Assembly: GCF_009914755.1 (NCBI RefSeq)
Contig: NC_060931.1
Direction: 5' to 3' (one strand)
DNA length: 64,000 nt
Source: the human T2T-CHM13v2.0 reference genome, Homo sapiens
Positions 22,128 to 63,064 of the stretch are shown one piece after another. Position numbers and translations under genes: made by a program. How positions within the stretch are numbered: position 1 is the first letter of the stretch; each line of letters opens with the position of its first letter. The notes below the pieces were generated by a model that saw nothing but the letters and a program-made list of their open reading frames with translations, ran no database searches and was not told the origin of the DNA.

Positions 22128-22185
22128 AGGCAAATACAGGTTATGCAAATAGAGATGGTGTCATTGAGCTGGGAGTGATTTGCAT
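22128..22185 (+). promoter_or_regulatory. Octamer cluster upstream of TAS2R62P
   Basis: AGGCAAAT at 22128, ATGCAAAT at 22143 and ATTTGCAT at 22178. Confidence 0.6.
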
Positions 22186-22399
22186 GCCAAAGGAGATTGC
22201 AGAAATTATCTTTTCAAATTCTGGGGACTGGGGGTGTTTGCTGGTGGCTGGGATTTTCTATGAATCCAGGGACAAGGGCTTCTGAGTCTCTGGTGTCAAC
22301 AAGGTGGCTTGACTCAGCCAGAGAGGCTGTTTTTCCCTGAAGATGTGTCCCAGCCCTCTGCAGTAGGAGCTGAGACTTAGCAGAACCTCCCTGGAGAAG

Positions 22400-23338
22400 A
22401 TGCCCTCCTTGCCCACGTTGATCTTCATAGCCATCTTTTGCCTGGAGTCATTGGCTGCAATGCTGCAGAATGGATTCTTGGTCACAATGCTGGGCAGGGA
22501 GTGGGTAAGGTGCCGGATGCTGTCCACAAGTGACATGATTGTGGCCTGTCTCGCTGCCTCCCGTTTCTGCCTGCATGGGGTAGCCATGGTGAACAACCTC
22601 CTGGCCTCCTTAGATTTTTCGCGTGCAGTTCCCTATATGAACATCTTCTGGGACCTTTTCAATGCCCTCACTTTGTGGTTTACTGCCTTGCTTGCTGCTT
22701 TCTACTGTGTGAAGATCTCATCTTTCTCCCACCCCACCTTCGCCTGGCTGAAGTGGAGGAACTCTCGGTTAGTGCCCAAGCTGATCAAGGGCTCCCTGAT
22801 CATCTGTGGCCTGGAAGTCATCTCATCAGCCACTGGGAACATCCTGTTTGGTCAGAGGAAGGTCTCCCTGAGTTCCTACAGAAACGAAACTCTAGTTTAT
22901 AGAGTGCAGGCTTCATTTCAGCTCTACTTTTTCCTTTATGAAGGGTTTGTGTGGTCGATTCTGTTCCTCCTGTTCCTAGTGTCCACTGTCTTGCTCATAG
23001 TCTCACTGTGCTGGCAGTTGGGGTAGATGAGGGACCTCAGGCCCGGCCCCTGTGATCCCAGCACCCAGGCTTACACTATGGCTTTAAAGTCACTCACCTT
23101 TTCCCTCATCTTCTGTACATTGTACTTCCTGTCCTTGTTTGCTTCTGCTTTGAAAATCATAAACTTTCAGAATCACTGGCACTGGGCCTGGTAAGTGCTA
23201 ATCTATGCCAACATCTGTCTGCACTCTACCGTCCTGGTGCTGAGGAGCCCCAAACTGAAAAAGGGCCTGAAGACATGGCCTCAGCTCCAGTGCCCACGTG
23301 CTGCTGGCTCACAGGGCTTTGGAAGGTGCTGGCCATAG
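22400..23338 (+). pseudogene. TAS2R62P: Bitter taste receptor pseudogene; 312-codon frame broken by TAG (codon 209, 23024-23026) and TAA (codon 265, 23192-23194)
   Basis: TAS2R motifs QNGF, LAASRFCL, FYCVKI and HPTFAWLKWR. Reading through the stops gives DPSTQAYTMALKSL...HSTVLVLRSPKLKK and a native TAG at 23336-23338 in the same frame. Confidence 0.95.
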
Positions 23339-23704
23339 GGTGGTTCTGCTCCTGAGTTATCTGTGTCAGTAACCAGTCCTGGGATGAATGATCCTGGTAG
23401 GAATGTATAAGGTTTGGGTACTGTCTTTCTCTTTCCGGTTTCTTCTTTCTCTCCCCCTCTGTCCATGCCTCAGAATCCCTTTTCCATCTTGCTGTCTGTG
23501 TTCTTACCATCCCCTCCACTGCTGTGAGTCTCTAGTCCTAGCCGTCAATCACCTTGACTTTTGCTGGTGGCCTCATTTCCTCATGGGGCCCCAAGAATCT
23601 ATAGGTAAGCAACCCTAATATTTGCCAAGCATCATTTTGGTCTGTATGCCCTTTATAGAGAACTGTAGCTGTCGTCAGTTGTCTCTGTGGGCAAACTGAA
23701 GCTT

Positions 23705-23998
23705 ATTTTTTATATATTTTATTTTAATTTTAAGATGGAGTCTTGCTCTGTTGCCCAGGCTGGAGTGCAGTGGCGTGATCTCGGTTCACTGCAGCCTCCA
23801 CCTCCCGTGTTCAAGCAATTCTCCTGCCTCAGCCTCCCGAGTAGCTGGGACTACAGGCGTGTGCCACCATGCCTGGCTAATTTTTGTATTTTTAGTAGAG
23901 ATGGGGTTTCACCGTGTTGGCCAGGCTGGTCTCAAATCTCCTCACCTCAAGTGATCCACCCACCTGTGGGATTACAGGTGTGAGCCACCGCACCCCAC
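23705..23998 (-). mobile_element. AluSx element
   Basis: Alu consensus; TSD tgaagcttattttt. Confidence 0.92.
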
Positions 23999-24696
23999 CT
24001 TGAAGCTTATTTTTTTATAGTGACATAGGTTGTCCAGCACCATCCACTTGACATCGCCTGCCCTTCTGCTCCACACCTGTTCTCTTGGCCTCGTCTCTCC
24101 ACTTCAGCCCAATAAATCTTCTTCCCCTCTTCCCCCAAGTCCTTTTCTTCTTCATGTGCTTCTTGGGCCCACCCAATACTTCCTTCTTTCCTTTCTCTGC
24201 CAATCTCCGTCATTTTCTTCCTTTGTGCTCTGCTTAAGACTGATTCCACTCAGGGAGTTTTTCCAGCCTGATCTCACAGAAGGCTAAAGACACATAGGAG
24301 TTTGGTGCCACTGTATGTCACATCCATAACTTCATGTGCTCATGTCGAATGAATAGGAATTGTCTGATGTGAAAATGCTTTTAGGTTTTGGCCAACAGAA
24401 GATAGATGGAAAACAAAGGAAATGTCCTACACTTCTTAATTTTGATGATCCTACTCTTCCTGTCTGCTCACCCAGGAGGTGGATCCCAGATGCTGCTGCT
24501 GAGGATGGGAATCTCCAGATTGGGATGTCTGCATCCCAGAGCTTGTGCAAGATGATCCACTAGGCCTGTAGCAATTTCAGTTTCCATTTATTTTTATCTT
24601 TTTCTTTTAATCCCCTTTTTTTGGGTATTTTATGATGCATATGACGTATTAGTAAAATGTACATGCATATAATTAAAAATAAATATGCATATGGTA

Positions 24697-60960: not shown

Positions 60961-61270
60961 GGCTGGGTGCCCTGGCTCACGCCTGTAATCTTGACATTTT
61001 GGGAGGCCAAGGCAGAAAGATTGCATGAGCCCAGTAGTTTGAGACTAGCCTGAGCAACATAGTGAGACTCTGTCTGTACAAAAAATAAAAAAAATTAACC
61101 GGGTGTGGCAGTGCATGCCTTTAGTCCCAGATACCTGGAAGGCTGAGGTGGGGAAGATTGGATCATCCTTCCTACCTTGAGGCTCCAGTGAGCTGTAATG
61201 GTGCCACTGCGCTCCAGCCTGGGTGGCAGAGTGAGACCCCGTCTGAAATAAATAAATACAAATAATAAAA
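60961..61270 (+). mobile_element. AluJ element
   Basis: Diverged Alu; aaggaactt duplicated on both flanks. Confidence 0.88.
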
Positions 61271-62279
61271 ATACAAGGAACTTATTCAACTGTAGTGCAG
61301 AAATAAACAAAAAACATAAATAACCTGATTTTAAAATGGGCAAAGGACCTGAATAACATCTCTCAAAAGAAGACAAAAATCGTTCATGAAAATATGTTTA
61401 ATATCACAAATCACCTGAGAAATGCAAATCAAAACCACAATGAGGTATCATCTTACATGTGTTAGAATGGCTGTTACCAAAAAGATGAAGGATAACAAGT
61501 GTTGGCAAAAATACAGAGAAAAGCAGCTCTTTCAGTCTGTTGACAGGAATATAAATTATGGAAAACACTATAAAGATTTCTCAGAAAATTAAAAACAGAC
61601 CTACCTTATCCAGTAATTCCACTTTTAGGTGTATATGCAAAGGAAATGAAACTAGTATTTTGAAGAGATATCTGCACTCCCATGTTCATTGAAAATTATT
61701 CACAATAGCCAAGACATGGAAACAATCTAAAAGCCCATTAACAGATGAATGAACAAAGAAAATGTGGTGTGCATACACAATGGAATATGATTCAGTCTTA
61801 GAAAAGGCGATTCTGCCATTTGCAACAACGTAGATGGAACTGGAGGACATTATGCTATGTGAAATGCTCCAGAGACAGAAATACATATATTGTACGATCT
61901 CACTTACATGTGGAATCTGAAAAAACAAACCCACAGAAGTAGAGAGTAGATTGGTGGTTTGCCAGGGTTCTGGAAGGGGAAATGGGGAGATATTGGTCAA
62001 GGGGTATGAAGTTTCAGTTATGCTAAGTGAACATGCTTTGGAAACCTAAGGTATGGTAGTATGAGTATAGTAAACAATACTGCACTGTATACTTGAACTT
62101 TCATGAGAGGGTAGATCTTAAGTGTTCTCACTACACATGAAGAAATTGAAAACAGGAATTATGTGAGGTGATAGATATATTTTAAAAGAAAATATTTTTA
62201 CTTTCAACATGGTCTCATAGGGACTTCTTTTTGATGTTGGTGTTAGACAGGACTCACATATGCCTCGGGTATCTCAGGG

Positions 62280-62605
62280 TGGCAGACAGACTGTAAAGTG
62301 GCCCTGCCTGTCCCTCAACCCTGGTGTTGGGCCTTTGTGTAACCTCCTTCTTTTGAGTGTTGTTGGTGACAGTGACTTGCTTCTAGCCAATAGACTATGG
62401 CAAAGGTGATAGGCTGTCACTCCAATGATTGTGTTATGTTATTTAAGACCCCATCTTGTTAGCAGACTCCCTTTAGAGACTGCTGACTTGACGTGAGTGG
62501 CCATGCTGAAACAGCTTACCTGGCAGAGACTGTGAGAGGCCTCTAGGACCAGAGAGCAGTCTCCCACCAACACCCAGGAAGAAACAGGGGCTCTCAGTCC
62601 TGCTT
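62280..62605 (+). mobile_element. MLT1F/G-type LTR fragment
   Basis: gtgacttgcttctagccaatagactatggcaaaggtgat...tgtcactcc. Confidence 0.65.
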
Positions 62606-62996
62606 CGGAAGGCCCCTCAACCACATGATAATGAATTCTCTCACTGGAAATACAAAACCCGTTTACACCATTATCATTTACATCTCAGGATTCATGGAGG
62701 ATCTAAGTAGAGATCTGGATGGAGAGGTAGACGAAGTGTTTGATTTTGAAGGGATTTGTGGGCAAAGGCAGTAAGGTAAGCATGGATGTGTAACAGGGAA
62801 GTACTGAGACAGAATTCTTTGATGTCACTATTTTTCCTGTGTATCTCCTATACTTGTCTCTATATTTAAAGTCTTAAGAATGTTCTGATGGGAAGAGGAG
62901 TGTTCATACGGCCTGAGGATGGAACTCAGTCACAGACACCCGGAAAAATCATAGACATTGATACTAACCATGGCAGCATGCAGGCAAAACTGGACA

Positions 62997-63064
62997 AGGC
63001 AAATTAGGGTAATTTGCAGGCCTAGTGGTAACTGACACTAGGATAAATTTGCATCCTGTCTGAG
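62997..63064 (+). promoter_or_regulatory. Octamer module upstream of TAS2R41
   Basis: AGGCAAAT at 62997, ATTTGCAG at 63012, ATTTGCAT at 63047 and TCTGAG at 63059. Confidence 0.6.

What the first reader, a model, noticed from the sequence alone, without database searches (positions are those of the whole stretch)
22128..63054. Fixed-spacing two-part octamer module upstream of all three TAS2R genes (candidate POU2F3 promoter code)
Seen: each gene has AGGCAAAT followed by a perfect octamer ATTTGCAT. The pairs are at 22128/22178 for TAS2R62P (50 bp apart), 28584/28635 for TAS2R60 (51 bp) and 62997/63047 for TAS2R41 (50 bp). The octamer starts 222, 182 and 199 bp before the respective ATG. TAS2R62P and TAS2R41 also have a third octamer-like site exactly 15 bp after the first (ATGCAAAT 22143; ATTTGCAG 63012). 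By eye I find only about ten other perfect octamers in 64 kb, several inside L1 or MIR elements, so this placement is unlikely by chance. Known: POU2F3 (Skn-1a), with coactivators POU2AF2/POU2AF3, binds ATGCAAAT and specifies type II taste cells and tuft cells. Inference: this is a conserved promoter grammar (about five helical turns) retained since these old paralogues duplicated.
Basis: partly seen in the sequence, partly recalled or inferred. Interest (0 to 1): 0.85.

Follow-up and report, generated by a model that had tools for sequence, protein, structure and literature searches.

The report
Conserved octamer box before bitter-receptor genes
The paired motifs are real, and the perfect octamer is a promoter signature shared by most human bitter-taste receptor genes, which points to direct control by an octamer-binding factor such as POU2F3.

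Summary
The exact pair AGGCAAAT...ATTTGCAT with a 42 or 43 bp gap occurs 15 times in the 3.1-Gb genome. Three of those lie 182-222 bp before the three TAS2R start codons of this window.

The main result is wider than the finding. A perfect ATTTGCAT on the gene's sense strand lies 100-400 bp before the ATG in 18 of 29 human TAS2R loci, against 2 of 30 olfactory-receptor controls. It is the top 8-mer in an unbiased scan and occurs in every deep branch of the family tree.

Around the three window sites the flanks and the spacer have decayed to background similarity. Both 8-mers and the 50/51 bp spacing are kept.

An inverted, octamer-like partner 15-60 bp upstream recurs in 10 of 20 deep lineages, at variable spacing. 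The fixed spacing therefore belongs to this clade, plus one other gene.

POU2F3/OCA-T binding is a reasonable inference but was not tested here. AGGCAAAT as a POU site is doubtful. Ten searches of open-access papers and bioRxiv preprints found no report of a TAS2R octamer.

The parts
22128..22135 (+). Distal box AGGCAAAT of TAS2R62P, 272 bp before the ATG
22143..22150 (+). Perfect octamer ATGCAAAT, in the opposite orientation to the proximal one. Together with the next 14 bases it matches the only perfect octamer before the chr7 locus I call TAS2R5 at 20 of 22 positions.
22178..22185 (+). Proximal perfect octamer of TAS2R62P, ATTTGCAT on the gene's sense strand (ATGCAAAT on the minus strand), 222 bp before the ATG
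22400..23338 (+). TAS2R62P pseudogene; 2 stops inside the Pfam match
   Evidence: hub annotation
28584..28591 (+). Distal box AGGCAAAT of TAS2R60, 233 bp before the ATG
28635..28642 (+). Proximal perfect octamer ATTTGCAT of TAS2R60, 182 bp before the ATG
28817..29773 (+). TAS2R60 coding exon
   Evidence: hub annotation
62982..62989 (+). Extra AGGCAAAA box of TAS2R41, 15 bp before the distal box
62997..63004 (+). Distal box AGGCAAAT of TAS2R41, 249 bp before the ATG
63012..63019 (+). ATTTGCAG, one mismatch from the octamer and in the same orientation as the proximal one
63047..63054 (+). Proximal perfect octamer ATTTGCAT of TAS2R41, 199 bp before the ATG
63246..64000 (+). TAS2R41 coding exon; it runs past the window end
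   Evidence: hub annotation

Best explanation
The perfect octamer ATTTGCAT, read on the sense strand 170-330 bp before the start codon, is an ancient proximal promoter element of the TAS2R gene family that selection has maintained. The three genes in this window carry their clade's version of it.

The likely mechanism, which is inferred, is as follows. In bitter-taste (type II) cells and tuft/solitary chemosensory cells, the lineage factor POU2F3 binds the octamer. [quoted passage not shown] This gives each receptor gene its own cell-type-specific promoter, much as the octamer does in immunoglobulin V-gene promoters with OCT1/OCT2 and OCA-B.

The AGGCAAAT box 50/51 bp upstream is a second constrained element. 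It is the local form of an inverted, octamer-like partner (xxGCAAAx) found before many TAS2R genes. It either takes a second, weaker POU molecule or another factor. I put that question at about even odds.

Shown here: the positions, the enrichment, the orientation bias, the conservation against decayed flanks and the retained spacing. Inferred: which protein binds, and that binding drives transcription.
For: - Family-wide placement. Sense ATTTGCAT occurs at 18 sites in 18 of 29 TAS2R loci within -400..-100 (8.7 kb scanned). There are 2 sites in 30.45 kb further upstream and 1 in 40.6 kb downstream. Olfactory-receptor controls of similar A+T content have it in 2 of 30 loci.
- Orientation bias in that interval: 18 sense against 2 antisense.
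- Unbiased k-mer scan: ATTTGCAT is the top 8-mer, in 16 of 21 deep lineages, with a background of 0.012 per 300 bp.
- Phylogeny: the octamer is present in all deep clades of the protein tree. A 19th locus has it at -826, behind an insertion.
- Island of conservation: no flanking column within 60 bp of the octamer exceeds 0.81 bits in 16 deep lineages.
- The three window genes share 4 exact 8-mers, against 0.11 in controls; 1.2% of controls had 2 or more.
- Their flanks and spacer are at background similarity while the spacer length is kept.
- The partner GCAAA[AT] lies 15-60 bp upstream of the octamer in 10 of 20 deep lineages, against a 3.1% background.
- Literature, passages only. OCA-T binding needs an octamer with A at position 5 (PMC12755459). 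POU-class motifs and footprints are enriched in open chromatin of mouse type II taste cells, where Tas2r loci are selectively open (PMC10239704). Two conserved Oct-like motifs within 300 bp before TAS1R4 were proposed as Skn-1a sites (PMC10781636).
Against: - No binding or expression data were available for these sites.
- In an RNA-seq table of a POU2F3-positive lung cancer line (supplement of PMC9534498, cut when stored, column meanings inferred by me), TAS2R14 is the only TAS2R row. Its values are about 0.5-1.7 and rise rather than fall, while TRPM5 and TAS1R3 fall strongly. POU2F3 with OCA-T1 is therefore not sufficient to switch TAS2R genes on in that line.
- The main texts of four POU2F3 ChIP or structure papers listed have no occurrence of 'TAS2R'.
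- PMC10239704 found no correlation between the Pou2f3 gene score and motif accessibility, and suggested a repressor role.
- Any POU class-2 factor, including the ubiquitous OCT1, binds this word.
- Ten of 29 loci lack a perfect sense octamer, among them the loci I call TAS2R38, TAS2R16, TAS2R1 and TAS2R5.
- The transcription start sites are not annotated, so 'promoter-proximal' is inferred from the distance to the ATG.
- Paralogues are not independent samples, so the P values overstate significance.
Confidence: 0.6

Rival explanations
1. The octamer is a functional promoter element, but the ubiquitous OCT1 (POU2F1) or another POU factor reads it as a general basal element. Cell-type specificity would then come from elsewhere, for example chromatin opening of the clusters or distal enhancers.
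For: POU2F1, POU2F2 and POU2F3 all recognise the same word; the POU2F3 structure paper describes recognition 'analogous to POU2F1' (PMC12755459). TAS2R genes are near silent in a POU2F3/OCA-T1-positive line. From recall, TAS2R transcripts are reported in tissues without POU2F3 cells, and heart expression is described in PMC3655793.
Against: A general basal element would not be expected to mark nearly a whole chemosensory family while being absent from olfactory-receptor controls. The cells that express TAS2Rs at a high level are the POU2F3-dependent ones (established knowledge; Matsumoto 2011, as cited).
Confidence: 0.25
2. The conserved word belongs to the site of a non-POU factor, or to a composite site, and its identity with the octamer is incidental. 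AGGCAAAT in particular would be bound by a different protein.
For: AGGCAAAT keeps a G at position 2 in all three genes instead of drifting among octamer variants. T2 is a base contacted by POU2F3. AGGCAAA recurs in 7 of 21 deep lineages. Weak conserved positions follow the octamer at +9 to +17.
Against: For the proximal box, all eight positions of the canonical octamer are invariant in 16 deep lineages and conservation stops at its edges. That pattern fits a POU site exactly. For the distal box this rival remains fully open.
Confidence: 0.1
3. The motifs are neutral relics of the ancestral duplicated sequence, or chance matches, with no function.
For: The genes are paralogues, so some shared upstream sequence is expected. 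Many 11-base words shared between promoters of the family look like chance.
Against: Flanks and spacer are already at background similarity while both 8-mers are perfect. There is a roughly 30-fold local enrichment with strict orientation across deep clades. Only 15 such pairs exist in the whole genome.
Confidence: 0.03

Closest known systems
Octamer element of immunoglobulin V-gene promoters (OCT1/OCT2 with coactivator OCA-B); recalled textbook knowledge, with OCA-B/OCT1 also described in PMC12755459
   Same: A large, rapidly duplicating receptor gene family in which nearly every member keeps a perfect octamer, in one orientation, in its proximal upstream region. The octamer form carries A5, which allows a lineage-restricted OCA-type coactivator to dock. 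The sense-strand reading ATTTGCAT is the one recalled for kappa light-chain V promoters.
   Different: Different gene family, cell type and presumed factor (POU2F3 with OCA-T1/2). The distance to the transcription start is unknown here. Binding and function are unproven.
Two conserved Oct-like motifs within 300 bp upstream of TAS1R4 in non-mammalian vertebrates (Nishihara et al. 2023, PMC10781636; passages read)
   Same: A taste-receptor gene with ATGCAAAT-type motifs close to the ORF, conserved over deep time and proposed to be read by Skn-1a/POU2F3. It also has two motifs.
   Different: It concerns a TAS1R (class C) gene that is absent from mammals and compares orthologues. The authors say that Oct sites were not seen in the other novel TAS1Rs, and they do not treat TAS2Rs.
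POU dimer elements MORE and PORE (recalled)
   Same: Two POU recognition units in an inverted or paired arrangement.
   Different: MORE and PORE are contiguous composite sites of 12-15 bp. Here the boxes are 30-51 bp apart, so the family definition is not met.
POU2F3/OCA-T target enhancers in tuft-like lung cancer cells (PMC9534498, PMC10920751, PMC12755459)
   Same: The same presumed factor and the same octamer word.
   Different: Those papers deal mainly with distal enhancers of tuft identity genes. TAS2R genes are not mentioned in their main texts and are barely expressed in the one table I saw.

Membership tests
Canonical octamer (POU class-2 site, ATGCAAAT) | Exact 8-base match | tested here: met
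   22178, 28635, 63047 and 22143 are perfect. So are 18 of 29 TAS2R loci in -400..-100.
Canonical octamer (POU class-2 site, ATGCAAAT) | A at position 5, needed for OCA-type coactivator docking | tested here: met
   Present by sequence in all perfect sites and also in AGGCAAAT. The requirement is taken from PMC12755459.
Canonical octamer (POU class-2 site, ATGCAAAT) | Occupancy by POU2F3 or another POU factor in vivo | not testable with these tools
   No ChIP, CUT&RUN or ATAC tracks are available here. The GEO set named (GSE186614) could not be opened.
Canonical octamer (POU class-2 site, ATGCAAAT) | Conservation in orthologues | not testable with these tools
   No other mammalian genome is held. 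Deep paralogues were used instead.
Ig-V-type octamer promoter | Element present family-wide in one orientation close to the gene | tested here: met
   18 sense against 2 antisense in -400..-100; 2 of 30 in olfactory-receptor controls.
Ig-V-type octamer promoter | Fixed short distance to a TATA box or transcription start | not testable with these tools
   The annotation gives coding exons only, and no CAGE or RACE data are held.
MORE/PORE POU dimer site | Two half-sites contiguous within 12-15 bp | tested here: not met
   The boxes are 50/51 bp apart here and 30-51 bp apart elsewhere.
AGGCAAAT as an octamer variant | Match to the bases that the POU-specific domain contacts | tested here: inconclusive
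   7 of 8 bases match. The mismatch is T2 to G, a contacted base. No affinity data are available.

The most novel reading that the evidence does not exclude
Bitter-receptor genes use an antibody-gene-like promoter logic. Each TAS2R carries its own octamer, read by POU2F3 with OCA-T coactivators. An inverted partner box, often at about 30 or 50 bp, helps a second molecule or partner factor to bind. Natural decay of the octamer, as in the one-mismatch forms before the loci I call TAS2R38 and TAS2R16 and several young chromosome-12 copies, tunes how often or how strongly each receptor is expressed in bitter cells and tuft cells. If so, receptor repertoire per cell and some differences in extra-oral expression could be predicted from promoter sequence.
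Probability: 0.3. Interest if true: 0.8.

Novelty: new member of a known kind. Interest (0 to 1): 0.62.

Why it matters
How TAS2R genes are switched on in bitter-taste cells and tuft cells is described in the papers I read as poorly understood (PMC10239704; PMC3655793). A 2025 review of bitter receptors has no passage on promoters or transcription factors of these genes (PMC12703716, term search only).

A single 8-base element at a predictable place before most family members gives a direct, cheap test of whether the lineage factor POU2F3 controls the receptors themselves. It also gives handles for reporters, for reading promoter variants and for minimal taste-cell or tuft-cell promoters.

Tried and rejected
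- The plain MAFFT alignment of the three upstream regions put the TAS2R62P boxes out of register. I used anchored comparisons instead.
- A fourth chromosome-7 pair with the same 50 bp spacing lies 3.3 kb after the locus I call TAS2R5. tblastn with all 29 proteins found no TAS2R remnant in the 4 kb fetched around it, of which about 3 kb lie after the pair (best E 0.15), so I treat it as chance.
- The words GACAAGGCAAA (TAS2R41 and the locus I call TAS2R13) and GCAAAACTGGA (TAS2R41 and TAS2R38) looked like deep homology. About 30 exact words of 11 bases or more turn up among the 210 promoter pairs, many of them unrelated, so I do not rely on these two.
- MORE/PORE dimer sites were rejected on spacing.
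- Origin from a repeat: none of the boxes lies in the masked stretches listed by the hub. That list gives only the longest ones, so this is not settled.
- Orthologue alignment was not possible, because no mammalian genome other than the window's own is held.
- One paper reading failed on a term with an apostrophe and was not repeated. PMC5670347 was therefore seen only as a listing and abstract.
- The supplement of PMC10920751 held nothing on TAS2R.
- Sigma-70 promoter scans, RNA, protein-fold and complex tools were not used because they do not apply.
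Full report
**Observation**

- AGGCAAAT starts at 22128, 28584 and 62997.
- ATTTGCAT starts at 22178, 28635 and 63047, so the spacings are 50, 51 and 50 bp.
- The octamers start 222, 182 and 199 bp before the annotated start codons.
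- ATGCAAAT at 22143 and ATTTGCAG at 63012 each start 15 bp after the first box.

**Chance**

The window has 14 perfect octamers on both strands, against 4.9 +/- 2.0 in 100 dinucleotide-preserving shuffles; no shuffle reached 14. AGGCAAAT occurs 8 times, which is not unusual in number (11 of 100 shuffles reach 8). However, its only 3 plus-strand copies are the three TAS2R ones.

The pair with a 35-55 bp gap occurs 3 times in the window and never in 100 shuffles. In the whole genome, a T2T human assembly of 3.1 Gb that the tools could search, the pair occurs 135 times with a 35-55 bp gap and 47 times with a 40-45 bp gap. By my count of the coordinates, 15 of these 47 have a 42 or 43 bp gap, and three of the 15 are the sites before TAS2R62P, TAS2R60 and TAS2R41.

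A fourth pair with the same gap lies 3.3 kb after another chromosome-7 TAS2R. No TAS2R remnant lies in the 4 kb fetched around it, so I count it as chance.

**The family-wide pattern**

A Pfam TAS2R search of the genome gave 48 matches. I took 29 loci, each with 1.5 kb of flank (the fragment L038 and the shorter fragments were left out). Names of loci outside the window, such as 'TAS2R10', are my own assignments from recalled N-termini and gene order. No tool confirmed them.

Scanning the upstream regions on the gene's own strand gave an unexpectedly general result:

| Region scanned | Size | Perfect sense ATTTGCAT |
|---|---|---|
| TAS2R, -400..-100 | 8.7 kb | 18 sites, in 18 of 29 loci |
| TAS2R, -1450..-400 | 30.45 kb | 2 sites |
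| TAS2R, last 1400 bp of each locus | 40.6 kb | 1 site |
| TAS2R, -100..0 | 2.9 kb | none |
| Olfactory-receptor controls, -400..-100 | 9.0 kb | 2 sites, in 2 of 30 loci |

- The opposite orientation occurs in only 2 TAS2R loci in -400..-100.
- The 30 olfactory-receptor controls were fetched the same way and have similar A+T content (0.64 against 0.62).
- One further TAS2R locus has the octamer, with the same flanks, at -826 behind an insertion. Its closest relative has the module at about -1018 with two mismatches.

The full tally over 29 loci is:
- 19 loci with a perfect sense octamer;
- 1 locus with a perfect octamer in the opposite orientation;
- 8 loci with a one-mismatch form at a similar place;
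- 1 locus with two mismatches.

**Independence and footprint**

A maximum-likelihood tree of the 29 proteins (quick method, stops read as X) places the perfect octamer in every deep branch. It groups TAS2R41 with TAS2R60, and TAS2R62P with the locus I call TAS2R16, in one clade (SH-aLRT 97).

An unbiased count of all strand-specific 8-mers in -400..-100 of 21 deep lineages puts ATTTGCAT first. It is present in 16 of 21 lineages, against a background of 0.012 per 300 bp. The next 8-mers are overlaps of it. Anchored on the octamer, no flanking column within 60 bp exceeds 0.81 bits in 16 lineages. The octamer columns themselves are fixed by construction in that view, so the enrichment counts above are the real test.

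**The three genes of this window**

Within 500 bp before the ATGs they share four exact 8-mers: AGGCAAAT, the overlapping CAGGCAAA, ATTTGCAT and TGGGGACT. Simple Markov controls share 0.11 on average, and 1.2% of controls share two or more. TGGGGACT is not at a matching position.

Pairwise matches in 60-bp blocks next to the boxes are 25-37 of 60 in 8 of 9 comparisons. Unrelated sequence scores 31.9 +/- 2.9 with the same aligner. Only TAS2R60 against TAS2R41 just after the octamer stands out, at 42 of 60.

The spacers are no more alike than shuffled sequence: 14 of 42 ungapped, P = 0.23. Yet their lengths are 42, 43 and 42. Two perfect 8-mers and a kept distance in otherwise randomised DNA is the signature of selection on both boxes, and probably on their distance.

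**The second box in the wider family**

AGGCAAAT is the octamer with T2 changed to G, and it points the opposite way from the proximal octamer. A word of the same type, GCAAA followed by A or T, lies 15-60 bp before the octamer in 10 of 20 deep lineages, where 3.1% is expected. The lineages are related, so the binomial P of 1e-10 is too small.

Counted start to start of the 8-mers:
- about 50-51 bp in TAS2R62P, TAS2R41, TAS2R60 and one distant chromosome-12 gene;
- about 30 bp in three lineages;
- 37, 40 and 46 bp in others.

So a paired, inverted arrangement is common in the family, but one fixed spacing is not. TAS2R16 belongs to the same clade but has no perfect octamer and no AGGCAAAT box. 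AGGCAAA itself is found in 7 of 21 deep lineages, but at a matching place only in this clade and one other gene.

**The 'third site'**

The two cases point in opposite directions and TAS2R60 has none, so they are not one element. The TAS2R62P copy at 22143 seems old in its own right. With its next 14 bases it matches the only perfect octamer before the locus I call TAS2R5 at 20 of 22 positions.

**Mechanism**

Shown: a conserved, oriented, position-restricted perfect octamer before most TAS2R genes.

Inferred: it is read by POU2F3 with OCA-T1/2 in type II taste cells and tuft cells. The grounds are as follows.
- These are the cells that express TAS2Rs, and they depend on POU2F3. This is established knowledge, cited in the passages.
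- OCA-T docking needs an octamer with A at position 5, which all these sites have (PMC12755459, passages).
- POU-class motifs and footprints are enriched in open chromatin of mouse type II cells, where Tas2r loci are selectively open (PMC10239704, passages).
- The closest parallel is the octamer of immunoglobulin V-gene promoters with OCA-B (recalled).

**Evidence against, and limits**

- I had no binding data.
- In an RNA-seq table from a POU2F3-positive lung cancer line (supplement of PMC9534498, cut when stored, column meanings inferred by me), TAS2R14 is the only TAS2R row. It is very low and rises, while TRPM5 and TAS1R3 fall. The factor pair is therefore not sufficient in that line.
- PMC10239704 reports no correlation between the Pou2f3 gene score and motif accessibility.
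- OCT1 binds the same word.
- Transcription starts are not annotated.
- Orthologues could not be examined.

**Novelty**

Ten full-text searches found no paper that reports an octamer before TAS2R genes. Three of them give the flavour:
- POU2F3 + TAS2R + octamer: 0 papers;
- bitter taste receptor + Oct-1 + promoter + octamer: 0 papers;
- octamer + bitter taste + upstream: 5 papers, none relevant by title or abstract.

The nearest printed result is the pair of Oct-like motifs before TAS1R4 (PMC10781636). Subscription journals and preprint supplements were not searchable, so an earlier description cannot be excluded. I file the finding as a new member of a known kind of element.

Noticed in passing
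L031, L032, L018, L021 (upstream regions of the loci I call TAS2R40, TAS2R39, TAS2R1 and TAS2R16): The forkhead-like word ATAAACAAATG is identical before three deep TAS2R lineages. The 10-base ATAAACAAAT is also present before a fourth, TAS2R16. TAAACAAA has zero background in the other flanks. It lies 36-37 bp after the octamer in TAS2R39 and TAS2R40 but elsewhere in the others.
   Followed up: partly
L069 (G000:C7:143110405-143110462): A fourth exact AGGCAAAT...ATTTGCAT pair with the same 50 bp spacing lies 3.3 kb after a chromosome-7 TAS2R gene. It is followed by a GT repeat and has no TAS2R remnant in the 4 kb fetched around it.
   Followed up: yes
L020 and L027/L070 (two young chromosome-12 TAS2R copies): The promoter module is displaced to about -826 and -1018 by inserted DNA between it and the coding exon. 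In the second copy the octamer has decayed to ATTTGTGT.
   Followed up: partly
L014, L019, L022 and other chromosome-12 loci: Four bases after the octamer there is often a second, inverted GCAAAT-type word. One gene reads ATTTGCATGGTTGCAAAT, a 7-base inverted repeat with a 4-base centre. The exact word GCAAA[AT] at +8..+16 is seen in only 2 of 20 deep lineages.
   Followed up: partly
L016 and L032: Two distant family members share ATTTGCATCTC at exactly -177 from the ATG as called; for L032 that is an internal ATG, since the start I recall as annotated lies about 51 nt further upstream. This may be chance.
   Followed up: no
window 29447-29454 (minus strand): One of the ten other perfect octamers lies inside the TAS2R60 coding exon.
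   Followed up: no
window 52061-52068 (minus) and 52226-52233 (plus): Two perfect octamers lie 165 bp apart in divergent orientation, far from any annotated gene start.
   Followed up: no
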